NCBI RefSeq assembly: GCF_003918875.1
Contig: NW_025767189.1
Coordinates: forward strand, 62,001 to 126,000
Source of the DNA: Haliotis rubra
Taxonomy: Eukaryota
Direction of reading: 5' to 3'
DNA length: 64,000 bases
The position numbers and the translations under genes are program-made. Under the pieces are notes generated by a model. The model had not been told where the DNA came from. It did not search any database and saw nothing but the letters and a program-made list of their open reading frames with translations. Of this stretch, positions 1,414-58,000 are shown one piece after another. Every line of letters starts with the position of its first letter. Positions within the stretch are counted from its first letter, which is position 1.

Positions 1414-1689
1414 TCTTGTTCTTGAGCTTTTCAAGTGAAGACCTATTCAAGAAATATGTATTCTTTCCCAGGGCCTCTCAAAAGGAATGAATATTCCAGC
1501 CAGTGCTTGTACATGATTATGCATGTTCTCAGGACAGTTCCAAGTGCATTATCTCAGTCAGTATCTATTGAAGAAAATAAAATATGTCAGCCAGGGCCTA
1601 ATATGAATACTCTCTTGACATAGCATCTTGAATGGGACGAATATTCCCAGCCAGGGCATGTTGAGAGTGATGAACATTCCTAATCAGAC

Positions 1690-4600
1690 CCTGTGCAGAG
1701 GGATGAAGATTCCAGACCAGGGCCTGTCCATGGGGATGAATATTCCCATCCAGGGCCGGTCCATGGGGATGAATATTCCCATCCAGGGTCTGTCCAGAGG
1801 GATGAATATTCTCAGCCAGAGCCGGTCCAGAGGGATGAATATTCCCATCCAGGGCCGGTCCAGAGGGATGAATATTCTCAGCCAGAGCCGGTCCAGAGGG
1901 ATGAATATTCTCAGCCAGAGCCGGTCCAGAGGGATGAATATTCTCAGCCAGGGCCGGTCCAGAGGGATGAATATTCTCAGCCAGAGCCGGTCCAGAGGGA
2001 TGAATATTCTCAGCCAGAGCCGGTCCAGAGGGATGAATATTCTCAGCCAGAGCCGGTCCAGAGGGATGAATATTCCCATCCAGGGCCGGTCCATGGGGAT
2101 GAATATTCCCATCCAGGGTCTGTCCAGAGGGATGAATATTCTCAGCCAGAGCCTGTCCAGAGGGATGAATATTCCCATCCAGGGCCGGTCCATGGGGATG
2201 AATATTCCCATCCAGGGTCTGTCCAGAGGGATGAATATTCTCAGCCAGAGCCGGTCCAGAGGGATGAATATTCCCATCCAGGGCCGGTCAATGGGGATGA
2301 ATATTCCCAGTCAGGGTCTGTCCAGAGGGATGAATATTCTCAGCCAGAGCCGGTCCAGAGGGATGAATATTCCCATCCAGGGCCGGTCCAGAGGGATGAA
2401 TATTCTCAGCCAGAGCCGGTCCAGAGGGATGAATATTCCCAGTCTGGGGTCGGTCCAGAGGGATGAATATTCTCAGCCAGAGCCGGTCCAGAGGGATGAA
2501 TATTCCCAGTCAGAGCCGGTCCAGAGGGATGAATATTCTCAGCCAGAGCCGGTCCAGAGGGATGAATATTCTCAGCCAGAGCCGGTCCAGAGGGATGAAT
2601 ATTCTCAGCCAGGGCCGGTCCAGAGGGATGAATATTCCCATCCAGGGCCGGTCCAGAGGGATGAATATTCCCAGTCAGAGCCGGTCCAGAGGGATGAATA
2701 TTCCCAGTCAGAGCCGGTCCAGAGGGATGAATATTCCCAGTCAGAGCCGGTCCAGAGGGATGAATATTCTCAGCCAGAGCCGGTCCAGAGGGATGAATAT
2801 TCCCAGCCAGGGTCTGTCCAGAGGGATGAATATTCCCAGTCAGAGCCGGGTCCAGAGGGATGAATATTCCCAGTCAGGGTCTGTCCAGAGGGATGAATAT
2901 TCCCATCCAGGGCCGGTCCAGAGGGATGAATATTCTCAGCCAGAGCCGGTCCAGAGGGATGAATATTCTCAGCCAGGGCCGGTCCAGAGGGATGAATATT
3001 CTCAGCCAGAGCCGGTCCAGAGGGATGAATATTCTCAGCCAGGGCCGGTCCAGAGGGATGAATATTCCCAGTCTGGGTCTGTCCAGAGGGATGAATATTC
3101 CCAGTCAGAGCCGGTCCAGAGGGATGAATATTCCCAGTCAGGGTCGGTCCAGAGGGATGAATATTCTCAGCCAGAGCCGTCCAGAGGGATGAATATTCTC
3201 AGCCAGAGCCGGTCCAGAGGGATGAATATTCCCAGTCAGGGTCTGTCCAGAGGGATGAATATTCCCAGTCTGGGTCTGTCCAGAGGGATGAATATTCCCA
3301 GTCTGGGTCTGTCCAGAGGGATGAATATTCCCAGTCAGAGCCGGTCCAGAGGGATGAATATTCTCAGCCAGAGCCGGTCCAGAGGGATGAATATTCTCAG
3401 CCAGAGCCGGTCCAGAGGGATGAATATTCCCAGTCTGAGGTCTGTCCAGAGGATGAATATTCCCAGTCAGAGCCTGTCCAGAGGATGAATATTCCCAGTC
3501 AGAGCCGGTCCAGAGGGATGAATATTCCCAGTCAGAGCCGTCCAGAGGGATGAATATTCTCAGTCAGAGCCGGTCCAGAGGGATGAATATTCTCAGTCAG
3601 AGCCGGTCCAGAGGGATGAATATTCCCAGCCAGAGCCGGTCCAGAGGGATGAATATTCCCAGTCAGAGCCGGTCCAGAGGGATGAATATTCCCAGCCAGG
3701 GCCGGTCCAGAGGGATGAATATTCCCAGTCAGAGCCGGTCCAGAGGGATGAATATTCCCAGTCTGGGTCTGTCCAGAGGGATGAATATTCTCAGCCAGAG
3801 CCGGTCCAGAGGGATGAATATTCTCAGCCAGAGCCGGTCCAGAGGGATGAATATTCCCAGTCAGAGCCGGTCCAGAGGGATGAATATTCCCAGTCTGGAG
3901 TCTGTCCAGAGGGATGAATATTCTCAGCCAGAGCCGGTCCAGAGGGATGAATATTCCCAGTCAGGGTCTGTCCAGAGGGATGAATATTCCCAGTCAGGGT
4001 CTGTCCAGAGGGATGAATATTCCCAGTCAGGGCTGTCCAGAGGGATGAATATTCTCAGTCAGAGCCGGTCCAGAGGGATGAATATTCCCAGTCAGAGCCG
4101 GTCCAGAGGGATGAATATTCTCAGCCAGAGCCGGTCCAGAGGGATGAATATTCTCAGCCAGAGCCGGTCCAGAGGGATGAATATTCTCAGCCAGAGCCAG
4201 TCCAGAGGGATGAATATTCCCAGTCAGGGTCTGTCCAGAGGGATGAATATTCCCATCCAGGGCCGGTCCAGAGGGATGAATATTCCCAGCCAGAGCCGGT
4301 CCAGAGGGATGAATATTCCCATCCAGAGCCGGTCCAGAGGGATGAATATTCTCAGCCAGAGCCGGTCCAGAGGGATGAATATTCCCAGTCAGAGCCGGTC
4401 CAGAGGGATGAATATTCCCAGTCAGAGCCGGTCCAGAGGGATGAATATTCTCAGCCAGAGTCGGTCCAGAGGATGAATATTCCCAGTCAGAGCCGGTCCA
4501 GAGGATGAATATTCCCATCCAGGGCCGGTCCAGAGGGATGAATATTCCCATCCAGGGCCGGTCCAGAGGGATGAATATTCTCAGCCAGAGCCGGTCCAGA

Positions 4601-5650
4601 GGGATGAATATTCCCAGCCAGAGCCGGTCCAGAGGGATGAATATTCCCAGTCAGGGTCTGTCCAGAGGGATGAATATTCTCAGCCAGAGCCGGTCCAGAG
4701 GGATGAATATTCCCAGCCAGAGCCGGTCCAGAGGGATGAATATTCCCATCCAGGGCCGGTCCAGAGGGATGAATATTCTCAGCCAGAGCCGGTCCAGAGG
4801 GATGAATATTCTCAGCCAGAGCCGGTCCAGAGGGATGAATATTCTCAGCCAGAGCAAGTCCAGAGGGATGAATATTCCCAGTCAGGGTCTGTCCAGAGGG
4901 ATGAATATTCCCATCCAGGGCCGGTCCAGAGGGATGAATATTCCCATCCAGGGCCGGTCCAGAGGGATGAATATTCCCATCCAGGGCGGTCCAGAGGATG
5001 AATATTCTCAGCCAGAGCCGGTCCAGAGGGATGAATATTCCCAGTCAGAGCCAGAGAGGGATGAATATTCCCAGTCAGAGCGGTCCAGAGGGATGAATAT
5101 TCTCAGCCAGAGCCGGTCCAGAGGGATGAATATTCCCAGTCAGAGCCGGTCAGAGGGATGAATATTCCCAGTCTGTCTGTCCAGAGGGATGAATATTCTC
5201 AGCCAGAGCCGGTCCAGAGGGATGAATATTCTCAGCTAGATCCGGTCCAGAGGGATGAATATTCCCATCCAGGGCCGGTCCAGAGGGATGAATATTCCCA
5301 TCCAGGGCCGGTCCAGAGGGATGAATATTCCCAGCCAGAGCCGGTCCAGAGGGATGAATATTCCCATCCAGGGCCGGTCCAGAGGGATGAATATTCCCAT
5401 CCAGGGCCGGTCCAGAGGGATGAATATTCCCATCCAGGGCCGGTCCAGAGGGATGAATATTCTCAGCCAGGGTCTGTCCAGAGGGATGAATATTCTCAGC
5501 CAATGGGCTGTCCAGAGGGATGAATATTCTCAACCATTGGACTGTCCAGAGGGATGAATATTCTCAGCCAGAGCCTGTCCAAAAACGATGGATATTCCCA
5601 GTCAGGGTCTGTCTACAGGGATGAATTTTCTCAGCCAGAGCCTGTCCAAT
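1690..5650. repeat. 33-bp minisatellite, ~120 units (consensus gtccagagggatgaatattc[t/c]cagccagagccg), with degenerate flanks ~1480-1690 and 5650-5790
   Basis: Directly visible head-to-tail units without spacers. It explains all ORF-track entries from 1628 to 5557 (11-aa periodicity: QRDEYSQPEPV / MNILSQSRSRG). Confidence 0.97.
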
Positions 5651-7213
5651 TCCCAGCCAGACTTGTGCAGAGGAAATTCGAAGAATATTCCATCAGAGCC
5701 TTTTGAGAAGGATGAATGCTCTCAGATGTAGCATGTTCAGAGGAGTGATTATACTCAACCTGTCCAGAAACATGAATATTCTCATCCGTCCAAGTTATGA
5801 TGACATAACTGCTGTGGTCCATAATGATATGGATAAAATCCAGATTGGACAATGTTTAGTCATACAAATTAATGTACATGCATGCAGACACAGAGACAAG
5901 AAATATTGGGCATTTTACCCTGACAAGAATTTGATAGTAACCTCATTTTGTATTAGGAATATTGCTGAGTACCAATACACTGGCAGTATGTACCAACTTA
6001 TATTAAAAGAAAAACATCAACTGGTTGTCCTATATGTGTTATGAATAATTATACTTATGTATTATTAAGCAAGTTGAAGATGAACAAGGTTTCCCATCTA
6101 TGGTATAAATATTTGTTTTGTGTATCAAGTGTTATTAAATAGTGAAATATCAACAGCTTATCCCATGGCTATGTTGTAAATGATTTCAGTCTGTCAGTCT
6201 GTTTCTTATGTTGTTGTTTTCTTATCACAGGAGCAGTTCTCATCTGCATGCAATTCTGACTGTTTATTATGAAATATATCCATTATGATGTACAATGTCT
6301 GTTGTAGTCTGTTCAAGGCCAGCAAGGTTTTAGTAGATTAATATTGATCATTTGCTTGTAAAGAGGAACCAAGCCTTATGCTACTGAGGGTGAGTCCCGT
6401 ATTGTGAAACTACCCAAAGGTGGCAAGCTGCAAGGGTATGAAGAAAGCCAGGCACCACTTACCAAGAACATATTTTTGTCTACTAGCATATGTTCAAGGA
6501 TAGAAACATGCGGAATTTGCCTGCAGTTCTGCAAAGTTACAAATGCCTGCAAATGCTGAAGGAATGCCCTCACGCTTTGGAGTATCCCAAGGTCCCATAG
6601 ACCAACGTGATATATTTTATGAGCGCCTCAACAAATTTGCTGCCAGTCATAATCGCCACAGTGGCCTGATACAGAACTAGTGTCACAAACAATAGACCCA
6701 TTCTGTCTCAATAAAAAATTACCTGAAGTCTTCCTGTCCCACCTGAAAGAAACCCAGCAGCTGTTCCCATTATCAAAACCTCGTAGAACATAACCTTTAT
6801 ATGTAAACATCACAGAATTAATTGTTTGATGAAATTGGTGACAGGTTAAACAATGCCACGTGTGTGGACCATAGGCGGATCCAGACGGGGAATACAGTAC
6901 TTTAAACTTTGGGTTTGGCTCTAAAACCCTATGTCCATTCCCCTTTTGTACTGGAATACAAAGCAGTATAAAGTTCCCTTCAAAGAGGGAGACATTGCTG
7001 AGGACGGGAAATATACCACCAAATCTGTGTCGCAAAGAGAAACCTTAATCAATAATACGACCACGGAAAGCCGTTCTTTATATTCAGAGAAAGCATGGCT
7101 GACACGAGCAATTAATGCCTTGACAGTTCGCCAAAACTCAAATAAGTTCTATCAATTTCTGTACGTTCCTAGCACATACGACAATTATAGTTCCATGGAT
7201 ATCTTCAAAGATT

Positions 7214-8248: not shown

Positions 8249-9875
8249 TTTCTCATCAGGTTAATTCAATTTGCGTAAAGATACCTTCTGTTTAAAACAA
8301 AACTCCACAACGAATTATGAATTTAAATGACATGTTTACATCTTGGTTACGGGTCACTGGATTGTGATTTAAATGAAGTTTTCAAAACATAATATGTCTA
8401 TTTATGAAAGAAATCCGAATTCGTTCTTACAGACAATACATTATTTTTTAGACCACCCAGTAGGACCAGGGAAAACCTTTTTGTGTGTTCGAAAACAAAG
8501 TACTGTTTCCCAAGCGGAACCAGGGACAGATTATGAGTCCCAAAAAATCGCTTATACGTGTAAGCACAGTGGTCTTATCGATTTGACAGTTAATCCCAAA
8601 TTTAAGGGCATCACATGTCGCCAATTAAGGACATTATGACGATGTGTGTTGACGGTATTATAAATGGATCAGCTTCTCTAACAATTTATTGCATCTATTA
8701 TGTACAAGTCATAATAGATGGTGTTTAATGTACAATATCGATTTAGGCACCAGATGTGTCAAAGGTTAAACCTTATGCACTGTTGCTTCGAAACTGTCTT
8801 TAAAAGCGTCCATCCAAGCTGAATGACTGTAAAAGGGGTAAGTATGTTTATATATTATTCGAATGGAACTGAACAGTTTACCATTTAAACTTCAAAATGA
8901 ACTATTACTCATTGTGGAATCATAATTATCATAAGAATAAGGATTATTTGTGTATATAGTGTAATGGTTGTGATTGTGTGTGAGTTGTCAAAGGCTCTGT
9001 AATAACCTGAGGGCGTCACTGACTCTTGATACAAACCTGTCATAGAGTATAGGAATCTCAAATTCTCTCTGACTCGTGGACGGTGGGGTAGCTTAGTGGT
9101 TAAATTGTACGCTTGGCACGCCAATGACCTGGGTTCGGTTCCCCATATGGGCACAACGTGTTAAGCCCATTTCTGATGTCCCCCGCCGTGATATTGCTTG
9201 AATAATGCTAAAACCGGCGTAAACCTAAAGTCACTCCCTCTAGGGATGACTGTGGTTTGTCTGTCTAGGTTTGTCTGTATATTCTCTCTTTCTCTCTATC
9301 TCCCTCTTTCTCTCTCTCTCTCACACACATACACACGCACACATACACATTTCTATGTTTTCTGTTACCAGTACACTACTCTTTGTACGTAGCGCCTAAA
9401 TGATTCTATGCCGCGTTCCACTATTCACACAGTCCTGAAGCCATGTGTAACAGACCCCATGTTTTCAGCTAGCCAGTGATCGCTTCAGCCACAATATATT
9501 ACCTACGCTGCCGTTATAACCTCAGAATGAGTATGTGTACTTGCTCAAGGATCATTCACAGTCTCAGAGGTTGTAAGCACAAAGTTGCCCAAGCATATCT
9601 TGAACACATATTATAAGTATACTTTTCAAAACGAGTCATAGAAAACAAAGAATTAGAAGTCTATGTGCTGCGATATCCACCAGTTTGACAGAGTAACTAT
9701 TTACATAATTATGTAAAGATCGAATCTTCTCAATTTCTGTTGAGTAGTACGTCGTGTGTGTGTGTGTGTGTGCGCGCGCGCGTGCGTGTGTGTGTGTGAG
9801 TGAGACATAGTCATCTAGAAGACTTTACAATGTACTGATACAATTGTGTTATTGTCTTCAGGATATTTCGGAACA

Positions 9876-12561
9876 ATGTGTGCCTTCCTCTTGACTTTGA
9901 CTGCAGGTAGGTATAGAATATCACAATATATTGAGTTGGAAAAATCTAAACTGGAAGCTCATGTGACACAATACGAGTATTCAGGATGTGCTTAGACCAA
10001 TGCGCAGTCCACTGGTATGACACCACACATATAATGACAGGTTGTGCAAGGATACACCGGAAAATACATTTCACTAAGGTTTACAGATGGTTCACCGAAG
10101 ATGCAGAATGTCCTTAAATGTCTTGTTAAAATATACGTTAGAGAAAGAAAGTGTTAGATCTGAATCAATGACGGGAACAATATTGAGTGAGTGAGTATGG
10201 TTTACGCCGCTTTTAGGAATATTCCAGCAATACCATGGCGGGGGGCACCAGAAATGGGCTTCACACATTGTGCTCGTGGGGAATCGAACCCGAGTCTTCG
10301 GCGTGACGAGCCAACGCTTTAACAACTGGGCTATCCCACAGCCCCGGAACAATATTGAGTCTATAATATCCCAATTATATAACACCCTCATCTTCCCCTC
10401 CAAACCACACACACGCGCACGCACTAACGCACGCACACATGAAAATGTTTCGGAAGTAATGTAAAATGTGTTAGTGCATACGCTACTTGTGATTCACCTT
10501 CGAAACTCCATTAAGGATTTTTGAACAAATGACTTAAATTCAAGACTTGAAAATCCATCAGGTCAAGAAGACACATCTAGATAGTGCACACAATAAACTC
10601 CTCTCCTCTTTATCCTTTACAGTTTTGTGTCACGTGCTACGTGTGGATGGAGCTCAGGTGATTGACGCCAACAACCGCTTCCGGTACGCACTACACCGGA
10701 ACTGGCGTCTGGCATATCGTCGACCAACAATAGCCCGAGTCTTAGAGCTTGATACGGATGTTAGACTTGAAACACGCTACACATTCACCACCGTCCATGG
10801 TGTCCATAGATGCAGATTACGGGGAGTTGTATAACGGCATGCCTGTCATAGGGACGAGTGTTGAAGCCGACGTTGACGACATCGGCCGATATGCTGGTGG
10901 CGCCGTGACGGGGACGCTGGTGCTGTCTATGAAGAACGACATCTCTAACCCTGAGCTGTGTCAGTTGACGGAGCAGGAGGCACAAGACATCCTCCTTACA
11001 GAGGAAGGACTAGCCTTAGATATACATATTTTGCGTAAAAGAGTCATCAAGAAGATATTTGTTGACAAGGCTAAGAAAGCCCATCTTGTGTTCGCCACTG
11101 ACATACTGGTTGAAAACACATTAACTGAGACAAGACCATATTACCTCATAGATCGCTGCGACGGTTCTGTTCTCAAGAAATCAAAAAGGTTGAACACGAA
11201 ATTCCGATCCCTGGGGGGCAGATTTGTCCATCACCGGGGAGACAAGTACAGAGGAACTGGATGCAGAGGAAACCTCTACTGGGACCGCGCCCTCACCTAC
11301 CGTGACAGTTCCAGACACACCTGGCGGGAAGTGTCCAACCTTTGTGAAGGGGACCGGTGGCAACCCGAAGACAGGCCCCATTGTGTACAGCACTCCCCCC
11401 TACTGTCTCGACGTGAGGGTGGAGGGGGACACGTGCTTTCTGGAAAATGAATATGTCAAGGTCGTTGATCTGAAACAGACAAAAAACGAAACGAAGACTG
11501 AGGTTGTTAGCTTCAAATGCTCTGATGGGTATGACGACGCCATCAACGAGGCCAGCAACCCCGTCCTCGACGCCCTCTTCTACGGCACAGCAACTTTCAA
11601 AATGTTTGAAGACTGGTATGACACCAAACCGCTGAACATCCAACCATCATGGCTTCTTGTTCATTACGGTTACGTGACTGATAACGCTTTCTGGAACGGG
11701 GAGAGGATGTTGTTTGGGGATGGAAACCTAGACAATACTTATCCCGTTGTGGGACCTGATGTCATAGGTCATGAGCTTGGACATGCGATATCAGAGCAGA
11801 ACTCTGAGTTAGAGTACTCTGGACAGTCTGGCGGGATTGATGAAGCCTTCTCTGACATTGCAGGAGAAGTTGTAGAGGCCTACGTTAGAACAACTGACTG
11901 GATGGTCGGATTCGATTTATCAAAGTCAGAAACTGAAGCGCTGCGATATTTTGAAGACCCCACCAGGGATGAAGTTTCAATTAAAGATGCTAACAATTTT
12001 GAAATCGACATGGACGTCCACTACAGCAGCGGCGTCTTCAACCACGCCTTTTACCAGATTGTTGTAGCCGGCATGGTCCCCATCAAATACGCGTTTGAGG
12101 GTTTTCTTATCGCCAACAGGTTGTACTGGAAGGAAGATACTGGGTTCGTCGATGGCGCATGTTCAACTATCCGTGGCGCTTACGATGCCGGCTTGGATAC
12201 CGATATATACAGCTCAGCCTTCACAGCTGTTGGGATTAATGCTTGTCCTTTGACCAGGTTTCTTCAGATGCTGATCCCCTCAATCGAACACCCCAACATC
12301 CGGGTATCGAGTATCCGTCAACCGCTGTTTGGCATCAAGACCAAAGACACAACAAAGAAGATCGTTGTGGAAGCTGTCAGTGGGACCGAAGCGGATGTGA
12401 AGCTGGCGCTGTCGAGGACGGAGTCCCGAAGTAACCCTGACGCTTCAGGGACTGGGAGGGTTGAACTGCCAGTTTCGGGGATAGCTTTGTACTACGTCCG
12501 CATCTTCACAGACTCCGTCGACGAGATAGATGACGTCAGGGTCACTTTGAAACTGGAATAA
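9876..12561 (+). CDS. Secreted M4-family (thermolysin/pseudolysin/vibriolysin-like) zinc metalloprotease preproprotein, ~655 aa, two coding exons; two apparent +1 frameshifts in G runs
   Basis: Exon 9876-9906 (MCAFLLTLTA G|gtagg) joins exon 10623-12561 (tttacag|TT) to give the signal peptide MCAFLLTLTAVLCHVLRVDG. FTP/PepSY-like propeptide (RLRELYNGMPVIG; YYLIDRCDGSVL). Catalytic domain: GTGGNPKTG, NAFWNGERMLFGDG, HELGH (HExxH, 11770-11784), GGIDEAFSD (third Zn ligand E at 11842), DVHYSSGVFN (His at 12019), then a ~105-aa C-terminal beta domain (PPC-like). Frames join by removing one G at 10821-10824 and one at 11213-11218. AATAAA signals near 12557 and 12623. Confidence 0.9.
10190..10344 (-). 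mobile_element. SINE B copy inside the M4 protease intron
   Basis: Family B sequence flanked by the 15-bp TSD ggaacaatattgagt on both sides. Confidence 0.9.
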
Positions 12562-12828
12562 ATTACAATTAATGGAAACAAATTCGAATCGACCTGTCAC
12601 AGATCTGGAATTTACCAGGTGAATAAATATGATCTCAACCTTGCTATCATATATCTTTGTTTTCTATCAGGCCACGTAATCATCAAAATCAAATATTTAA
12701 ATTCTGAACAACCAATTGTAACAAGTGTATTAATTTCCAACAGAGACATACAGATTTCATAAACCATAAAAATAACAAAAATACGCTATTTTGTCAATTT
12801 AATGCATGAAAGACGTGGGTAATAAATA

Positions 12829-13820: not shown

Positions 13821-15080
13821 CTAATCAGTCAGCCAGATGTACGTACTGTACACAGAGTACGGGAACCCGTCCCAGAAAACCTCCCCAGGATCAGTCTGTC
13901 TCATCCCATCTAAAGTAGGAATCAGTTTACCGTTAGGGTTGCACAGCGCCGGATCCATCGTATAGGAAAACGCTGCGACATCACAACCTTTGAACCACCA
14001 ACCCGACTTATGCTCCAAAGCACAAGTCCACCACGAAAGGTCATCATTGTCGCGGTCTTTTGCTGAGAAAGGCTTCCCGATGACGCTGGTGAGGCAGTCG
14101 TTCCCGAAGTCCCCGTAAGAGTGGTTGAACGAATCGATTGCGAAGTCCTTGTTCTCGTCCAAGATTTTGAAGTTGGTGTAACTTCGGGAATAGGTCGAGC
14201 CGTTCTTAATTACGTAACTGATGGTAAAGGTCACGTTCCTGGACGAAAGGAGGGTGTGGAGGTAGCGGTTCCCAAGCCAGTGGTCCCCCGTGAGACTTCC
14301 AAAACCCTCAGTGTACTCCGCCCATGGTCTGAACATGTCTGTGGAGGGGTTCTCCCGGTACTGCACGTGCAGTCTCCCGCCATTCCTCATGTCGCACCGG
14401 ACAAAGAAGGTATGATTGAAGGTCGACGGCTGGACGGGTAGAACACCTGAAAAGTTGTTGTAGCTGTTTGACTTGAACCCATCGCTACAACCTAGATACA
14501 AAACACAGGTGAGAGTTAATCAGTGTAATAAATTATCGGACAAAAGAAAAGCATATAACAATGGCCTGATTGTGACGAAAAGTAGTGCAACAAGATATGA
14601 TCATTCTTTGGTGATGTATTGATACTTGACAAACCAATTCGATTATGTACTTAAAGCTGCTTACCCATTTTTTCTGGAGTTAAATTCAATTAGTCTTGGT
14701 TGATATGAGTTAATAACGTTTACTCACTTGACATCCGTCTCTCACAGCTGTCCCCCACATAGCCGTGAACGCAGATGCACTGGTCCCCAGTGTCTTTGTA
14801 GCCCCCATTCTGACAGTCGCCACGCTATCACACAGACATATTTGATTATTAGATGGGAATAGTTAAAATCTCTGGCTACAACAGTTCAAATGTGTTTGGT
14901 GCGGAGTTTAGTATTTTGAACGAGTGGTAGTAGTATTAGTAATAGTAGCTGCAACAGCAATAATAATAGTAGTAGTAGTAGTGATCGAGGGGAAAAAATA
15001 GCAGCGCCTTGAGCATGCACTAGTTGCGTGGATACGTGCGCTATATAAATATCCTATAATAATAGTAGTAGTAGTAGTAA

Positions 15081-15112
<32 letters not shown>

Positions 15113-16000
15113 TGGTCCTATGCACAGAGCTCAGGTCACGAATCAGTGAAGTTAAGCAACGTCGAGCTCGGACAGTCCTTCGATGGGTGACCGTGTTTGA
15201 CAGCTTGACTCCTGAGAGTTTCTAGGACTTCAGTCCTGCCCCACAACGAAGCGATACATGTGGTCTCACCTTAGGCAAGTGAGTTTGTTCAAACTTGCCT
15301 CTGTTCACCCAGCAGAAAATGGGTACCCGGTTGGAAAAAATTATGTGACTAACCTTTTAGCGCCTGACAGGCAGCTTGGGTTATCCGGGGAAATAATCAT
15401 TAGATTCTGAATAAGCGCCGCGAGCAATCACTTGGTGTTTGGAGACTGTGCGCTATAGAAGATGACTTATTATTATCTTAGTAGTAGTGTTTTCTTAGGA
15501 ATGTCCCAGCAATATTACGGCGGAAAGCCCAAAAGAGCAGTGGTACTAGTAGTAGTAACAGGAGGAGAAGTAGCAGCAGTGATTGGATATTGAATATGCT
15601 AGTGTGTTTAACAAGTAATACAGGTATAAAAAAACGGGCACACACGCAAACACACACACACACACACACACACATTAACGCATTCGATGTGGAAACAAGA
15701 AAACAAAACCTGCTGGAGGATTAAATCAACCACCTCCACAAAGTAACTTGAGAGTTGTTCCCCCTTGCACTGGTTATTGTCAGGCTGTGGGAAGAGAGTA
15801 CAGTTTCGTCGATAGCGGTCAAATACCCGGCACTGGGGGTTCTGTAGGCACAGGACGGCACACTCAGTGACGGTGTTGGTGTCCACGGTGGCCAGGACGG
15901 ACGTCAGGGAGCACAACTCGGACTTGAACATAAAGATCCCCGTGACATGAGACAGGTACATCACGTGCATCATGGTTACCAGGAGACAGCGGAGTGGCAT
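13821..16000 (-). CDS. Secreted fibrinogen-related protein (FReD): signal peptide - PAN/apple-like - EGF-like - fibrinogen C-terminal domain, 344 aa, 3 exons
   Basis: Exon 16000-15734 (MPLRCLLVTMMHVMYLSHVTG...TECAVLCLQNPQCRVF...CTLF, GAG|gtggtt). Exon 14824-14728 (tag|RGDCQNGG...CICVHGYVGDSCERRMS A|gtgagt). Exon 14491-13821 (tag|SCSDG...VRCDM...WAEYTEGFGSLTGDHWLGN...FSAKDRDND...SGWWFKGC...NPNG, TAG). Phases 0 and 1 join to 1035 nt. Confidence 0.88.
15111..15477 (+). mobile_element. 5S rRNA-headed SINE (SINE3-type) with CORE-like body and L2-like tail
   Basis: gaagttaagcaacgtcgagctcggacagtccttcgatgggtgaccg (15148-15193) matches the 5S internal promoter region. ccttaggcaag...ctctgttcacccagcagaaaatggg (~15269-15323) is CORE-like. 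The aagcgcc...gcgctatagaa(tta)n tail is L2-like. Inserted in a (tag)n microsatellite. Confidence 0.7.
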
Positions 16001-19000
16001 CCTTCTTGACAACACTTAGCAACGGGATACACGTGATCTGTAGATAGAACTCGGCATTGAAACCATCCTGGATGATCCGGTGAACAATACTTTCTGATTA
16101 CTACGAGGAATGCCCTGGACAAATTCCATATCATAGCTTCGTCACGAAGGTAACGGCGTATTCTCGTGGCGTAGGTTTAAGGGCCCGACAAAATCTACGT
16201 GTACGCTAAACAATAGTAAACATATCCGCCCATTAATGATAATAGTGAGTGAGTTTAGTTTTACGCCGCGTTTAGCAATATTCCAGCAATATCACGGCGG
16301 GGGACACCAGAAATAGGCTTGTACCCATGTGTGGAATCGAACCCGGATCTTCGGCGTTACGAGACCGCCCCCATTAATGATAATAACTATCTGGAAGTGT
16401 ACTATTTATAAGACGATAGAGGCGATAAAGCAGAATTTGTTTTAAGAATGACAGTTTTAAAATTCGCAATTTTAGCAGCGACGTTTAATAGAGTAATAAA
16501 ACATATTTTTGGGAAATTCGTACAAATGGAAACCTAGTTGGATATAACAGAGGTCTTACATAAGACATAAAACTTGATTTACTATGTGACACGGGACTCA
16601 AACGCGTTGCACACCCGTGTCACATGCGAATTACACGCGTTCAAGGAGAATGAATTTTTAGGCAGTAGTGTATGTATGTATGTATGTGTGTGTGTGTGTG
16701 TGTGTGTTCGTTCGTTCGTGCGTGCGTGCGTTCGAGCGTGAGGGTGTGCTTCCACTACCCTGTATATCACATGCGTGCAAGACTCTACACCGAAACGTCG
16801 CTCCTTGTTGCAATAACAAGTTCTTCATGTATACATCTTATCCTTACTTCATCTGTGACTGATATTTCCAACATCACAGCGAGATGGTCATCCCTAAGTT
16901 TAATTCTTCTTAAAATTTGCCGGGATCAAATTCTGCAGCTTCTCTCAGTTCTAGTATTCAGTTCAGTACACTGGAATTTAACACTTCATCGTCAATATAC
17001 AGGATATGACAGGCAACAAAGGCATACTTTCCCATGCACATGTTTTCGAGGTGGCTACCGATAGAGCAGGGCATGCCTACCCTTTCGGCGAACACCTGGT
17101 ATCATCGCTGATTGCCAGTCATTTAGTTATTTAGTGTTCATTTCCAGTGGATAATTAAGACTGGTTATTCCCTGCCATTGCCGTTTTCTATTTACAACAT
17201 GACCTAATGCCAAGAACCAACAGAAACCGACCGGAACAATACAAGGTTTTTTATGCCAATTTTCATCGCTAATCGTGATTTAAGGTGCAGTTAAAATATT
17301 TTGATAACTTTTAACTCATGCTTGTCAAAGTTAAATAATACTGACCGTGTACTGTTATTGGGTTTCATTGTCTCTCATCACGAACAAAAACATAGATACC
17401 AGTAATAGAAAGTTCAAAAGACTCACCTTACATTACTTGTGAAACAACATGTTTGACACATTCCATCAAACACAAGTGTGATAAGTGAGTATCAAGCACA
17501 ACGACATCAGCGCCCTCAACCGTCGAAATCTGTCGTCAGAGTAAACAACGTATCGATATCGATTTGGAGGATCAGAATTACTCTGAACTAACCGGCTCAC
17601 TGATCAATGGAGCCTGACAACACCGTGTTGGTTGGGGCTGCGTGTCTGATCACAAGCGTACGTCTTCAGGAATATGATCATAAACCTTGACTCATGTCAA
17701 TGATACATTAAACGCTTAATTAGACGTTGGATATCATTTTAACATTAATACATGATTTCCAATTTTGAATAACATTCATTATTACACTGTCACCTATTCA
17801 TCAATTTGTAAGATCGTTACGTGACATGACATCAAGTGTTGAACAATTTCTCGATAGGCTTCGCATTGAATCAAATCGATTGTGATCGATTACTTGAACT
17901 TCAAGGTATGATCGTTGTTTCTGAACATATAAAGTTTTCAAGTTCTGTCACACACACACATCAAAAGCTCTGAGAAAGATTATTACAAATGATTTAAATG
18001 AACACAGATTAAATCTTTGAGTGGTCCAGCAAACCTGGGATTATGCGTATGCTTAAACATGGTAATAGTCTGTTCACAAACAGCCCATGTAATAGGATAG
18101 GATTGTCTCAACCACGTGTTTACACGGTCACCAAGGACGCTGTCATGGTAACGATGTAGGATGCTGTTAGATAAGGAAGAAGGTAATATGTTACATTTAA
18201 ATTCTCTCAGTTCAGCCCTTTGGTTTGAGGCCGTGTATTGAATAAGGAATTGTTCTCCTAATGCCAGACACTTCCCTTGCTTTATCAACAGTTACGCTTT
18301 GTTGGGTGTCACTTAAGAAGTCGCATACACCACACACGATCAAACTACTGTTATTATCCAAATGTAAATTACGAAGCATAATACTTTTAAATGGATTGTA
18401 TTCACACCTTTACGGTGTTTGCATGTCGAGATAAAATGGATACGGGCGTAATCTTATTGCCGAGTTTAAAAAATATTAAATGAGAAAGTTTCTCGAGATT
18501 TATCTTTGAAGGTTTAATGCACTATTTCCGTCTCTTGATGCGTAACTGTTTGTAAATCAGCGGCCACTTTTGATGACAAAAGAAAGCTGTAGAGGAGGTG
18601 AGCATTTTTAAAGGGACAAAAGCTCTTTAACACTCGAACTATTTTGACTGTAATTATAGATGGATGGGTACTACGGAATATGTCATGGTTCATGTTTTGA
18701 TGAGAATGATAAATAAACACAGATAACAACTTTTATTATTTGAAGTTTTATTGAAAATATAAAACATAATAGCACAATAAACATAATAACATTTCATTTA
18801 AATTTGCTCGTGGTAAACTAAAATGAAGAAATAATGCACATTTTTCCTACAGAGTTACGTAACCATTTGAACTCTCACATCGTATGGACATATATAAATA
18901 CATTATCGACAGGAATATGAAACTATAAGCAGCCCACAGCATCGAATGCGGTGATATTATCATATGAAATCATAGGAAAAATACACAGAGAAATATAAAA

Positions 19001-32800: not shown

Positions 32801-34354
32801 NNNNNNNNNNNNNNNNNNNNNNNNNNNNNNNNNNNNNNNNNNNNNNNNNNNNNNNNNNNCACGCATATTCTCAAGCCAATTATGAAAAATTTGAGAGGTG
32901 TGATTTTATCCCAATTTTGTGACACAATTTTGTCATGTTGATAAGATGAAAAGGAGTTGATGGATAATAGAAAAGTATAATACTTTATAGATAACACCTT
33001 CTTTATTTTCATGAACAAGAAATAAAGAAGTTGTTATCCATAACGCATTATACCTTTCTATGAATATTTATCATCTAAAACATTTATTAACACGTTTCCT
33101 TGTTATGCGTTATTAGTTATCTAGTTTAAATGTGAAAAAGGACTTGACATGTGCGTGTTTTCTTTGTATTGTGACACTCTTGTCAGAGCATGCTGTGGTG
33201 GCATTTTTATTGCCTTGGCATATTCTTTCTGTTTAATGATATATTACAAATTTTAACGTTACGGTATATACACGTATACGCAACAATATAAACAGAGCTC
33301 CAATAAGGAATGAACAGAATATATAGCTACAATTGTTACTGGGTATCTGTAGGTTGTGCAATGCTTCTACACCCACTGAATCTGTTTCAGTGATAAATCT
33401 CTATGGCGTTAAAGTTATATTAGATATTAGAAAAATAAACATCAAACAATACCCTAGGCTTTTCACTAGACGGCATTTTGGGTTTCCCTCCTCCCACGTG
33501 TAAATGAAATTCCCATTTGTGCCCCCTCTCAAAATGATTATACGCATTTCTTTTAATGTGTCCCTCTCACATGTCATACACTTCTCTCTAAATGTGCCCG
33601 TAGCCCAGTGTCAATACATTCTCTTTGAATGTGCCCCTCTCACATCTCACACTTCCCTCTAAATGTGCCCCCAGCCCAGTGTCAATACACTTCTCTTTGA
33701 ATGTGCCCCTCTCACATCTCATACACTTCCCTCTAAATGTGCCCCCAGCCCAGTATCAATACACTTCCCTTTGAATGTGCCCCTCTCACATGTCATACAC
33801 GTGACTCTAAATGTGACCCAGCCCAGTGGAACTGCACTTCCCTTTAAATGTGCAGCTCTCACATGTCATACACTTCCTTCTAAATGTGCCCCCAGCCCAT
33901 GTCAATACATTTCTCTTTGAATATGCCCCTCTCACATCCCATACACTTCCCTCTAAATGTGCCCCCAGCCCAGTGTAAATACACTTCCCTTTGAATGTGC
34001 CCCTCTCACATGTCATACACGTGACTCTAAATGTGACCCAGCCCAGTGGAAATGCACTTCCCTTTAAATGTGCAGCTCTCATATGTCATACACTTCCCTC
34101 TAAATGTGCCCCCAGTCCAGTGTCAATACATTTCTCTTTGAATGTGTCAGTGCCGTACCTTTGATCATGTCTCCTGGGTGCACAGTCAGCTTGCTGACGA
34201 TAAGGTTGTAGGGTTTTTCGTGTTTCACCTCTATTCCGTGCCCTGGAACTAGTCCCTTGCAGGACATCTCATTGGCTCCCTGGGGGAAGGCAGCATCCCT
34301 TCCCAGCATCCCTAGCAGCACCAGCAGGGAGCAGATACCGGAAGTGAACGTCAT
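20803..34354 (-). CDS. FRRS1: Reeler-DOMON-cytochrome b561 protein (ferric-chelate reductase 1 / SDR2-like), paralog 2; final exon and spacer junction unresolved
   Basis: Minus-strand exons: 34354-34159 (signal + Reeler start FPQGA...C...PGH), 32266-32151 (FRGFLV), 31344-31241 (VTH...FDWVAP), 30378-~30114 (Reeler end + Pro/Thr spacer; donor uncertain), possible 29315-~29268, 27932-27720 (CGRTRGCF...WMAIAFSEDRMM), 27437-27342 (GDDAVIEC), 26799-26646, 25820-25701 (...LAH), 24007-23892 (TM1), 23036-22950 (IHR), 22772 or 22763-22692 (LHP), 21994-21895 (FNWAHW), 21481-21338, 20936-20803. All have GT-AG ends. Four b561 His and the DOMON Met/His are present. Probable 5' UTR exon donor at 37506. Confidence 0.85.
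21020..21206. mobile_element. MITE in intron
   Basis: Terminal inverted repeats cctacactatccctggatcca ... tggatccagggggaagtgtagg, with inner inverted segments. Confidence 0.65.
23463..23717. mobile_element. MITE (PIF/Harbinger-like ends)
   Basis: TIRs gggaccgttcataat...atggct / agccat...attatgaacggtccc, followed by taa. Superfamily inferred from the GGG termini. Confidence 0.7.
24019..24568. repeat. 90-bp tandem repeat, ~6 copies, intronic, abutting the TM1 exon acceptor of paralog 2
   Basis: Unit cacgtaatgagtggtatagtgagcctcctctggagacgtgtaaagcacttaacattaaacactcaccagggacatacaggtactacgaga. It explains ORF 23956..24588. Confidence 0.95.
28055..28571. mobile_element. Foldback MITE with ~215-bp terminal inverted repeats
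   Basis: ctatagtctgtttgcggtgaaaac...tgtattacaaggggta is mirrored by taccccttgtaataca...gttttcactgcaaacagactatag. TA at both ends. Confidence 0.85.
31863..32093 (-). mobile_element. SINE-like family C (~240 bp, non-tRNA structured head); representative copy
   Basis: Begins acccgtgaagatccgggttagaattggtcttcagtaacccatgcttgtcgtaagaggcgactaacggg (consensus) and ends ...tatagctggaatattgctgagtgcggcgtaaaac. This copy has a perfect 12-bp TSD, agcttattatgc. Other copies at 26167(+), 30452-30700(-), ~46165(+), ~51325-51500(-), 54039-54790(+), 57676(+), 62130-62365(+). Confidence 0.88.
32691..32859. other. Assembly gap (N run) within an intron of paralog 2
   Basis: Run of N. Confidence 0.99.
33555..34148. 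repeat. ~74-bp minisatellite (two ~37-bp subunits; ~220-bp higher-order repeat)
   Basis: Recurring cacttccctctaaatgtgcccccagcccagtgtcaatac...gaatgtgcccctctcacatgtcata. The variant gtgactctaaatgtgacccagcccagtggaa recurs ~220 bp apart. Confidence 0.9.
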
Positions 34355-34762
34355 TGCTGGACTCGGCTGGAAACTCTCCTTGGAACTGAAATAGAACTGT
34401 ACATCCTCAAATACTACCGATAACATGTTACTCACAGGTTAAAACTCCCATGCAATACCGTCATCTGTTTATGTGATGATCTTCCTTATCAACATTGCTG
34501 CGGTTTATGCCCTTGGGTAATAAAATATGGCCATGAAGGACTTCAGCGATTCTACATCAACCTCTTTACTTATATCCACATAAAACATACTTAAACTGTA
34601 ATAACATTTACTGCTTCGGTTTTGTTTTTGATGTGCCGGACATTGTGTATTTTCTATGTGAAATAAGATAACGAATCCCTTTACGTATACATGACTTTGT
34701 CACCGTACGATATACCGTATACATATGTTTAAGAATCACCAAAACATGAAATTGGTTGTAAC

Positions 34763-55000: not shown

Positions 55001-58000
55001 CATCCCCGAGTAGTGCCGCATTTACCTCCCTTGTCGTCCTTCGGAAGAAGAAAAGACATTTAAGGTCATTATTAAAACTGTGTTGTCGAGAAAACATTTA
55101 GCAGTGTAAAGTACTGTAAACTATACACATGCATACATAAAACTTTCTACGAGGTGAATGTACGTTGTAATCATTTTCTTTATCATTTGAATATAGGGTC
55201 AATGTATTTTTCAATCATACACGAATCGTGGATTCTTTGGTCAAATCCAAAGTTTACTCTAAAAGGACATCGCACTAGAAGAAAGATACAACAAGTATGT
55301 CTGATGTAATGCTTATATGACTATGTGTGTGAATCAGTGTGAATCAGTGCTAAAATGCATCATACGGTGACCTGGATGTTTTTATCGAAACACGTGCAGC
55401 TTTTTCGCTAAAACTTTAATATTAGAACATAACCAGTCTCGATTGCAATAGCAAAATTGCGGGGAAAAAGACGTGAAGCGTTACTGAAAATCATACAATA
55501 TACATACGTAAACCCTGAAAAGTTCGGAAAATATCACATTTCCCCGTACGAGACTAAACCCTCCACACGTGCGCTTGCGTGCGTGCGTGTTGTGGGATAG
55601 ATAGGTGGAGAGAAGGATCAGTAAGAATACTTTAGAAACGGGATATTACAAAGACCAGTTCAGACGGTACGTCGAATGTGTGACTCACCAGGCCCACTGT
55701 AGTACGGGTGGGTTTCGGGGTTGATGTTGCCTTTGGTACCGAAGGTGGTGTGGCTGGTGCCGGGGTTGGTAGAACCTGTCTAGGAGTGGTCACCCATGGT
55801 GAGGTTACACGGTCTGTTGGTCTTGTAGTTGTCGTCGTGGTTGCAGTCGTCGTTGTAGAAGGTGTAGTTGTAGTGGTCGTTGGTGTTGTGGTGGTTGTCG
55901 TGGTGCTGGTCGTTGTGCTGGTCTGGGGGAGATCCTCGGGACACGGCGTGATGTAGGGGGTCACCAGCTGGCTGGGGTTGACGCTGAGGGGGAAGCGGGC
56001 CATGTTGTCGGTGATGACGGCGGAGTTGACGCCAACCCAGAAGTTGCTGAAGCGCTGTACGAAGGTCGCTCTGTGGACGAAATGGTACATACGTGTAGAT
56101 GTTTTGAAGTCAATATACACCTTTAAAAGAAGTTGGGGGACCTGAACTTTCAATTTGGATAGGGAGTATAAGCGTTATCAAACTTTTCAAAAACAGACAT
56201 CTTATGAACGCACCACCATTTCCCTTTACTACCACCTCTAAACACAACGCATGGGTTGCACGGGCACAACGCAGTAGACCCATACATGTGCATGGGGTGT
56301 CATTATTGATTTTAACGGTTTCCAAGAAGGTCATCTTTCAAGGGCGATTACTGTACAAACAACTATGGTCATAAGGAAGTGCAAGTGGTGATGCACTCTC
56401 AAAACTCTTTTTAAGAGAATATTTCTGTTGAACCTCTGTGTTTTTATCAGGACTAAAAGATGACATTAAATGTGATAGAAAAAGTGAGTGAGTGGGTTTG
56501 GTTTTACGCCGCTTTTAGCAATATTCCAGCAATATCACGATACCGGACACCGGAAATGGGCTTCACACTTTGTACCCATGTGGGGAATCGAACCCGGGTC
56601 TTCGGCGTGACGAGCGAACGCCTTAGCCACTAGGCTACCCCACCGCCCCGTGATAAAACTAGTGTACATAGGTGAATGTAGACCCTTTTATCAACCCATT
56701 AAGGTATACGGTGAGAATATACACTGGGGTGTACACCATGGCGCAATACGTCAGTACAAGACAATACCCAGTCTTCACTATCCCCTGAAACAGATTCCAT
56801 TGTTGTAAAGGGTGAAACAGTTGTGAAAATTATGTGAGTGGACAACTGAAAATCATGGATGACACCAGGTGTTCGCGGAAAGGGTAACACCGGCAGCACC
56901 CGCCATTAAAAGAGTAAGTATTCTCATCTAAAGCTGACCTTAGTTTATGCAAACATGTCATTGATTTATCGTGTGTCTGCTTTCTGTGAAATTTTGGTCA
57001 GAAAATATCTCACAAGGGAACCAGCAAATACGCTGGTTCTATCCGTTGCTGTGAATAGATCAAACACCACTACAACACACACACACTCTCCCTCTCCCTC
57101 TTCCTGTACGATACAGAACTGTATTAAATTCTCAATCTAACTTTCAAAGTTTGTCGGGAGAAGCATCGCGCTACTTGAGGGATTTGACCGAGGTCTACAC
57201 TCCTGCTCGCAACTTAAGATCTGAATTTCGTCAGCTTCTCCGTGTTCCACAAAGTAACACTGTCCGTGATGTCATTGATTTTTGCTTCAGACTCTCCTCT
57301 TCAGATCTTTAAGTCTCGCTTGAAAAGATATCTCTCTTAGAGTTTCGTTGTACATGGAGATATGCGCTATACAAATGCACCGTTGTTATAATGTGAAATG
57401 AGTGTTTTGCGTGTCCTGCGTGCAGTGTGGTCAGAACCCCGCTTACGTGACGACTATGTGTCCAATGGACTGGGAGGGCGATGTCCAGTTGAAGAGGAGA
57501 GAGGACTTGTCATCGTTAGTGATGTGGGTCAGAGCCGCTTCCTGAAACAGATGGAATACATTGGAGAGCCAGTCTAGACAGCATTCAATGAGTAATTTGT
57601 CACAATACCACGTCACGTCAACAACCCCCTAGATACTGCTCCCGTCACCTACTTACCTTCCTCACCCCTTTACCGCCCGTGAAGATCCGCAGTAGAATTG
57701 ATCTTCGGCAATCCATGCTAGTCGTAAGAGGGATCAGGTGGTCAGGCTTGCTGACTTAATTGACACATGTCATCGTATCCCAATGGCTTAGATCGATGCT
57801 CATGCTGTTGATCCCTGGATTGTCTGGTCCAGACTCGATTATTTACAGACCTATAGCTGGAATATTGCTGAGTGCGGCGTAAAACTTAACTCACTCACTC
57901 ATTCACTCACCACTTTACCTCCCCCGTTCCCTCCACGCCCTCCGACACTACCCCACCCCATCCCACTCACCCTTCGACACTACCCCTTTCACACCTACCC

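What the first reader, a model, noticed from the sequence alone, without database searches (positions are those of the whole stretch)
9876..12561. Bacterial-type M4 (LasB/vibriolysin-like) metalloprotease embedded in an animal genome, with a spliceosomal intron
Seen: a complete prepro-M4 architecture (signal, FTP/PepSY-like propeptide, HELGH...GGIDEAFSD...DVHYSSGVFN catalytic domain, PPC-like C-terminus). Nearly all of it is one 1.9-kb exon, as expected of a gene acquired from bacteria. A single phase-1 GT-AG intron (9907-10622) splits the signal peptide and carries a host SINE with TSD, which argues against contamination. Established: M4 is a mainly bacterial family. From memory, motifs such as GGN.K.G, VHYG....NA.W.G..MLFGDG, EQNS.L.Y.GQSGG and DVH.SSGV.N resemble Gram-negative pseudolysin/vibriolysin more than Bacillus thermolysin. 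Inference: horizontal transfer from a marine gammaproteobacterium, followed by intron gain. Vibrio M4 proteases are virulence factors against molluscs, so host re-use in digestion, mucus/matrix remodelling or defence is plausible. Homologs may already be annotated in other molluscs.
Basis: partly seen in the sequence, partly recalled or inferred. Interest (0 to 1): 0.82.

Follow-up and report, generated by a model that had tools for sequence, protein, structure and literature searches.

The report
Ancient bacterial-type protease family in molluscs
This abalone gene encodes a zinc protease built like the secreted elastases of bacteria, and it belongs to a family shared by snails, clams and octopuses that likely came from one very old gene transfer from bacteria, not from a recent Vibrio infection.

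Summary
The gene is real. It has an ATG at 9876, a phase-1 GT-AG intron (9907-10622) holding a SINE with a 15-nt target duplication, and a stop at 12561. It encodes a LasB/vibriolysin-type M4 protease with every catalytic residue in place. The protein is already auto-annotated (RefSeq, Haliotis rubra 'neutral protease-like'). It is not a lone or recent transfer. The genome holds 7 M4 loci. The five near-whole paralogs share the signal-peptide acceptor. Homologs in gastropods, bivalves and cephalopods form one clade (99/84). With Lingula and transcripts of probable annelid origin, they sit on one side of a 100/96 split from all 34 named bacteria. The root is unresolved, so a gammaproteobacterial donor is not shown. 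Best reading: one ancient bacterium-to-animal transfer, then intron gain and duplication, giving a secreted, self-activating protease that most likely digests extracellular protein. Ten literature searches found no paper on this family. Expression and activity are untested.

The parts
7120..7182 (+). Candidate upstream exon (probably 5' untranslated here; the start codon of the H. asinina model reads TTG); its donor site is not located
   Evidence: tblastn of P0002 residues 1-21, 67% identity, E 4.8e-4; sequence
9862..9906 (+). First coding exon: acceptor AG at 9860-9861, ATG at 9876, MCAFLLTLTA plus one base (first half of the signal peptide)
   Evidence: P0002 reads through the same exon
9907..10622 (+). 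Phase-1 GT-AG intron, 716 nt, inside the signal peptide
   Evidence: phase-1 acceptor at the same place in 5 of 5 near-whole paralogs examined
10174..10360 (.). Host SINE (10189-10345) between two exact 15-nt target-site copies (10174-10188, 10346-10360)
   Evidence: depth of millions in 3 of 4 runs and 3.7e5 in the fourth
10623..10651 (+). Rest of the signal peptide (cleavage after ...VDG judged by eye; no predictor was run)
   Evidence: helix then A-x-x-V motif aligned across molluscs
10652..11212 (+). Propeptide, FTP plus PepSY-like fold; +1 frameshift at G run 10821-10824
   Evidence: 80-82% identity to P0002 in two frames; the ortholog model matches the vibriolysin MCP-02 propeptide 3nqz_A, E 4e-10, TM 0.78
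11213..11346 (+). G run 11213-11218 with the second +1 frameshift, then a Thr/Glu/Pro-rich flexible linker (repeat-expanded in close paralogs)
   Evidence: pLDDT under 50 over P0002 residues 232-271
11347..12240 (+). M4 catalytic domain: HELGH 11770-11784, zinc-ligand Glu 11842-11844, Arg 11944-11946, His 12019-12021, four LasB-type cysteines
   Evidence: Pfam; residue alignment to 1ezm elastase; ortholog model TM 0.93-0.94 to MCP-02 and LasB
12241..12561 (+). C-terminal beta-sandwich, PPC-like, and stop codon
   Evidence: Foldseek 5sv5 PPC domain E 2.4e-4, TM 0.62; weak hhalign to the Aeromonas PPC region, probability 6%; Atlas PPC clusters at 0.91 for the bivalve C-terminus

Best explanation
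This is an abalone gene for a LasB/vibriolysin-type M4 zinc protease, likely intact and predicted to be secreted, belonging to a mollusc-wide family that likely descends from one ancient transfer from a Gram-negative bacterium and most likely digests extracellular protein. Shown: the gene anatomy, the catalytic residues, the shared intron acceptor in paralogs, and the mollusc clade. Inferred from LasB/vibriolysin biochemistry (my knowledge): the signal peptide takes it through the ER; the propeptide folds and blocks the enzyme, then is cut off by the enzyme itself near the flexible linker; zinc held by HExxH plus Glu activates water to cut before bulky hydrophobic residues; the PPC-like domain holds it on insoluble substrates. 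Inferred history: transfer before gastropods, bivalves and cephalopods split (possibly in an earlier lophotrochozoan), gain of the signal-peptide intron before the paralogs diverged, then repeated duplication. Guess at role: gut or secretion digestion about 50%, mucus or microbial defence about 25%, matrix remodelling or development about 25%.
For: Intact: contigs of 3 runs lack the extra base at 10821 (all of the depth in X1 and X3, half in X4). X3 record 20 is 2 bases shorter than the reference over 10616-11230, and X1 record 4 is 1 base shorter over 10901-11563, as expected if both shifts are errors. The ortholog P0002 is colinear and open. Host gene: neighbours encode PAN and fibrinogen-C domains; the SINE sits in the intron; GC3 is 0.55-0.58, inside the 0.49-0.66 range of paralogs and a host exon. 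Family: 7 loci in the genome, 4 with one long open frame. The first 19 hits are 14 named molluscs and 5 unnamed rows, ahead of any named bacterium; further named members are Octopus, Sepia, Sinanodonta, Physella, Gigantopelta and Lingula. Careful tree, 73 rows: window sister to H. asinina 100/99; gastropods plus bivalves 100/99; molluscs 99/84; all 34 named bacteria on the other side of a 100/96 branch. All 71 placements of the abalone trio inside bacteria lose at least 121 lnL units, and the 7 best were rejected. 71 of 71 placements of the mollusc clade inside bacteria were rejected. Every outgroup row that carries a name, and the sister group, is bacterial.
Against: No RNA evidence for this gene. 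The AU test holding the abalone trio with all bacteria against 14 other molluscs was not rejected (p 0.347), although that constraint can be met by making the trio the deepest mollusc branch. The mollusc-clade rejections are marginal (p-AU up to 0.039 among those printed) and used fixed topologies under LG+F+G4. With outgroups the root falls among the animal-like rows, and 10 of 25 roots inside animals, 12 of 34 inside bacteria and 6 of 6 between were not rejected, so the tree does not give the direction. Animal branches are long and could attract each other. The bootstrap had not settled. Twelve rows on the animal side are unnamed. Absence from other animals and eukaryotes was not surveyed.
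Confidence: 0.62

Rival explanations
1. Several independent old transfers from LasB-group bacteria into molluscs, annelids and brachiopods, drawn together in trees by long branches; the mollusc family may still be one event.
For: Animal branches are much longer than bacterial ones. Lingula joins the bacterial side in the rooted tree. An unnamed protein with two ShK domains (P0080) nests apart, beside Vibrionaceae (97/97), which suggests repeated transfer if it is eukaryotic.
Against: 100/96 split under a site-heterogeneous model; 71 of 71 placements of molluscs inside bacteria rejected.
Confidence: 0.2
2. Vertical inheritance from an early animal or eukaryotic ancestor with many losses; the bacterial look is only conservation.
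For: The root is unresolved and fits inside the animal-like rows; no bacterial donor is closer than about 47% identity.
Against: Named eukaryotic hits in three searches were only molluscs, Lingula and one gut-parasite transcriptome. The catalytic and C-terminal coding region has no intron in any of the 6 near-whole loci of this genome. The whole bacterial domain order, PPC included, is kept. The searches were biased towards close relatives.
Confidence: 0.1
3. This copy is a recent pseudogene: the two frameshifts are real.
For: Two +1 shifts in the assembly; RefSeq models it as a 511-aa protein without a signal peptide; no transcript seen.
Against: Both shifts lie in G homopolymers; short-read contigs of two samples of the best-matching organism lack the extra bases; no in-frame stops in the three pieces; all catalytic residues are kept.
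Confidence: 0.06
4. Recent abalone-specific transfer from a Vibrio-like pathogen, or bacterial contamination of the assembly.
For: The closest solved structures are vibriolysin and LasB.
Against: The best named bacterium reaches 47% identity against 92% for the congener and 49% for a bivalve. Placement inside bacteria costs at least 121 lnL. Intron, SINE and animal neighbours. The stretch is held in DNA runs of 3 organisms at a word share of 0.2 or more.
Confidence: 0.02

Closest known systems
Pseudolysin (Pseudomonas aeruginosa LasB, PDB 1ezm) and vibriolysin MCP-02 (3nqx, 3nqy, 3nqz), peptidase family M4
   Same: Signal-propeptide-catalytic-(PPC) order; HExxH plus Glu; active-site Arg, His and Tyr; both disulfide pairs; about 40% identity; TM 0.93-0.94 for the ortholog model.
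   Different: Nuclear animal gene with a spliceosomal intron in the signal peptide; Thr-rich linker before the catalytic domain; Asp for Asn before the zinc Glu; C-terminal domain too diverged for Pfam PPC; activity untested.
Thermolysin/bacillolysin (M4, Bacillus type)
   Same: Same fold and zinc site.
   Different: Far more distant: 82-93 bits against 226; TM about 0.79.
RefSeq-predicted mollusc 'neutral protease-like', 'elastase-like' and 'virulence metalloprotease-like' proteins (XP_046584641.1 is this locus)
   Same: Same gene or family.
   Different: Automatic names only; the model of this locus lacks the N-terminus and skips part of the propeptide to get round the frameshifts; I found no paper on them.
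msp130 (PMC11878542; abstract and first of 7 parts read)
   Same: Proposed single ancient bacterium-to-animal transfer with later duplication and conserved intron positions.
   Different: Unrelated protein, bilaterian-wide, tied to calcification; here the named range is molluscs plus a brachiopod and probably annelids.

Membership tests
Peptidase family M4 | Peptidase_M4 and M4_C domains above the curated cut-off | tested here: met
   86 and 91 bits against cut-offs of 22.4 and 24.4
Peptidase family M4 | HExxH plus downstream Glu in GxxNExxSD, with active-site Arg and His | tested here: met
   HELGH, GGIDEAFSD (Asp for Asn, also in several mollusc homologs), ALRY, DVHYSSG align to elastase
Peptidase family M4 | Signal peptide and FTP/PepSY propeptide | tested here: met
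   By fold: ortholog model to 3nqz_A, E 4e-10. Pfam is below cut-off on P0002 and P0003. Signal peptide judged by eye.
Peptidase family M4 | Zinc-dependent proteolysis and autoprocessing | not testable with these tools
   needs recombinant enzyme
LasB/vibriolysin subgroup of M4 | Closer to LasB/vibriolysin than to thermolysin; two conserved disulfides | tested here: met
   one ingroup with them at SH-aLRT 99
LasB/vibriolysin subgroup of M4 | C-terminal PPC domain (vibriolysins) | tested here: inconclusive
   no Pfam hit; Foldseek E 2.4e-4 to a PPC domain; hhalign probability 6%
Horizontally acquired animal gene | Integrated in host DNA with host features | tested here: met
   intron, SINE, animal neighbours, orthologs in congeners
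Horizontally acquired animal gene | Nested inside a bacterial donor clade | tested here: inconclusive
   sister to, not inside, the sampled LasB-group bacteria in the unrooted tree; root unresolved
Horizontally acquired animal gene | Absent from outgroup animals and eukaryotes | tested here: inconclusive
   none among named hits, but no genome-by-genome survey was possible
Horizontally acquired animal gene | Transcribed and spliced | tested here: inconclusive
   no RNA holder listed; the RefSeq ortholog model uses the junction

The most novel reading that the evidence does not exclude
A single transfer into the common ancestor of molluscs, annelids and brachiopods gave Lophotrochozoa an unrecognised family of secreted bacterial elastase-type proteases. 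It has been kept for over half a billion years, expanded in tandem, marked by one ancestral signal-peptide intron, and fused to animal domains such as the C-type lectin in Lingula: animals turning a class of enzyme best known as bacterial virulence factors to their own digestion and defence.
Probability: 0.4. Interest if true: 0.74.

Novelty: new variant of a known kind. Interest (0 to 1): 0.56.

Why it matters
M4 is described as 'known almost exclusively from bacteria' (PMC7851659, abstract passage), and well-supported ancient bacterium-to-animal transfers are said to be few (PMC11878542, introduction). A retained multi-gene family across molluscs would be a clear, testable new case with an intron marker for dating it. 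Practically, 'virulence metalloprotease' or 'vibriolysin' hits in mollusc transcriptomes and proteomes may be host genes rather than signs of Vibrio, and mollusc plasma inhibitors of Vibrio metalloproteases could have endogenous targets (inference). The interest is tempered because the proteins are already auto-annotated, the donor is unresolved and no function is known.

Tried and rejected
Recent Vibrio/gammaproteobacterial donor: rejected. Contamination: rejected. The RefSeq internal intron near 11034-11223: treated as a model artefact, since the skipped part is 82% identical to the ortholog's propeptide. Expression: no RNA holder listed. A 1469-nt contig of run X11 (kind not on record) covers 11316-12568 at about 89% identity, but it is the close paralog, not this gene. 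Rooting with 8 outgroup rows did not resolve the direction. Fast constrained searches were discarded because the free tree scored below a constrained one. The AU test was uninformative by design. ARAGORN found no tRNA in the SINEs. Upstream first exons were found only for L002 and L003; candidates for L004, L005 and L006 were not convincing. Names could not be had for 23 of the 30 proteins looked up. The tool for contigs around relatives was closed, so intron positions in other species are untested. The Atlas gave only bacterial clusters for the whole protein. Literature: 10 searches, seen as listings and abstract starts, showed no paper on animal M4. Term look-ups in three papers found none. 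A review on peptidase origins that I recalled is not held. Supplements, subscription journals and MEROPS were not seen and may list these genes. Earlier scan notes: nothing.

Full report
Observation. The region holds a two-coding-exon gene on the + strand: ATG 9876, exon end 9906, GT-AG intron 9907-10622 in phase 1, and a long exon to the stop at 12559-12561. The spliced N-terminus is hydrophobic and signal-like by eye. The last open piece carries Peptidase_M4 and M4_C far above the cut-offs. The intron contains a 157-nt SINE between two exact 15-nt copies, present at very high depth in all four runs laid. A protein identical to the window's over 445 plus 65 residues is in RefSeq as 'neutral protease-like [Haliotis rubra]', so this is abalone DNA and the locus is already auto-annotated. 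Neighbouring exons encode fibrinogen-C and PAN domains.

Frameshifts. Exon 2 needs two +1 frame changes, located by the colinear H. asinina ortholog P0002 at G runs 10821-10824 and 11213-11218. Short-read contigs show one base left out at 10821 in X1 (151 of 151 depth), X3 (5.3 of 5.3) and X4 (13.9 of 27.7). An X3 contig is two bases shorter than the reference across both runs, and an X1 contig is one base shorter across the second (27 rows of that table were not shown, so the second is inferred from lengths). The best holder may be the sample the assembly came from; X3 is a second sample. I read both shifts as homopolymer errors (about 90%), giving a 655-residue protein. The RefSeq model avoids them with an internal start and an intron over conserved sequence.

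What the protein is. Among solved structures the catalytic part is closest to Pseudomonas elastase (226 bits) and vibriolysin MCP-02 (218) and far from thermolysin (82). The zinc motif, third ligand, Arg, His, Tyr and the four cysteines align residue for residue. A model of the ortholog P0002 (mean pLDDT 84.5, 19-row alignment) matches MCP-02 and LasB at TM 0.93-0.94, the MCP-02 propeptide at E 4e-10, and a PPC domain at E 2.4e-4. Pfam alone does not call FTP, PepSY or PPC on P0002, and hhalign of the C-terminus to an Aeromonas homolog is weak. The mechanism is therefore inferred from the subgroup: secretion, propeptide-assisted folding and inhibition, self-cleavage, and zinc-dependent cutting before hydrophobic residues (my knowledge of M4 enzymes; not tested).

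A family, not a lone gene. The genome has 7 M4 loci on 4 contigs (a lower bound): four with one open frame of 644-680 codons, one with a single frame break, one badly broken, and this one. All five near-whole paralogs, 40-51% identical in the catalytic domain, have a phase-1 AG acceptor 10-12 codons before the end of the signal peptide, and for two the first exon was found. The intron therefore predates their divergence. Short-read contigs also show a close paralog (about 87-89% identical, with a 3-base gap at 11644) that the assembly search did not find. Named homologs occur in four Haliotis species, Gigantopelta, Babylonia, Pomacea, Aplysia, Physella, Solemya, Tegillarca, Sinanodonta, Octopus, Sepia and the brachiopod Lingula (with a C-type lectin domain), and in a transcriptome of Siedleckia nematoides. 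That parasite lives in a polychaete gut (my knowledge), so a host origin is my inference.

Trees. From 475 catalytic domains plus 80 named bacterial loci I built a 214-row FastTree and a hand-picked 73-row IQ-TREE set (17 named molluscs, 3 other named eukaryote rows, 34 named bacteria, 19 unnamed; near-duplicates left out). In the careful tree (LG+C20+F+G4, bootstrap not fully settled) the window is sister to H. asinina (100/99), gastropods plus bivalves form a clade (100/99), cephalopods join them (99/84), and all named bacteria lie across a 100/96 branch. Abalone paralogs fall in two deep subclades, one shared with bivalves, so duplication predates the gastropod-bivalve split. Regrafting the abalone trio at 71 places inside bacteria costs at least 121 lnL; regrafting the mollusc clade was rejected 71 of 71 times, but only marginally; both used fixed topologies. 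Against this: a looser AU test was not significant (p 0.347). With 8 outgroup rows (5 ingroup rows dropped) the root fell among the animal-like rows, and roots inside animals, inside bacteria and between them all survived (10 of 25, 12 of 34, 6 of 6). The LasB-like group also includes Myxococcota, Acidobacteriota and betaproteobacterial rows, so the donor cannot be named. The bacterial origin rests on the bacterial sister group and outgroups, the bacterial domain order, the intron-free catalytic exon and the narrow range of named eukaryotic hits.

Novelty. The family M4 and ancient transfers into animals are known kinds. Ten searches of the open-access library showed no paper on animal M4 genes (listings only). 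PMC7851659 (two passages seen) calls M4 almost exclusively bacterial. PMC11878542 (abstract and first part read) gives msp130 as the nearest precedent. Subscription papers, supplements and MEROPS were not seen. Verdict: a real and probably functional gene, in an apparently undescribed, old, expanded molluscan (perhaps lophotrochozoan) clade of bacterial-type proteases. The donor and function are open. Interest 0.56.

Noticed in passing
window 10783-12568 (contigs): A second copy about 87-89% identical, with a 3-base gap at 11644 like P0003/P0004, is in short-read contigs of two organisms but was not found in the assembly G000; probably collapsed or missing.
   Followed up: partly
proteins P0003, P0004, P0255, P0256, P0384: Close paralogs are longer (701-979 aa); in P0003 and P0004 the linker before the catalytic domain carries short Thr/Trp-rich repeats (TTLDWGTGE-like), and P0255 and P0384 have repeat-type Pfam hits there.
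   Followed up: no
proteins P0080 and P0303: An unnamed M4 with two ShK domains nests beside Vibrionaceae, apart from the mollusc clade: a possible second, independent transfer into a eukaryote.
   Followed up: partly
protein P0304 (Lingula anatina): M4 catalytic domain fused to a C-type lectin domain, an animal-style domain shuffle that hints at microbe or glycan targeting.
   Followed up: no
window 13821-16015, minus strand: Neighbouring gene with PAN and fibrinogen-C exons.
   Followed up: partly
window 34100-34438 and 57995-58387, minus strand: Reeler-like exons (weak Pfam hit for the second, by eye for the first), suggesting tandem defence-protein genes.
   Followed up: no
window 1600-5600: About 4 kb of degenerate tandem repeat (unit about 32 bases, judged from the ORF translations) that makes long spurious ORFs on both strands.
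   Followed up: no
G000:C1113:1450500-1833556: Four M4 paralogs lie within 385 kb of one contig, two of them as a near-identical tandem pair 11 kb apart; a broken copy lies at the end of contig C330.
   Followed up: partly
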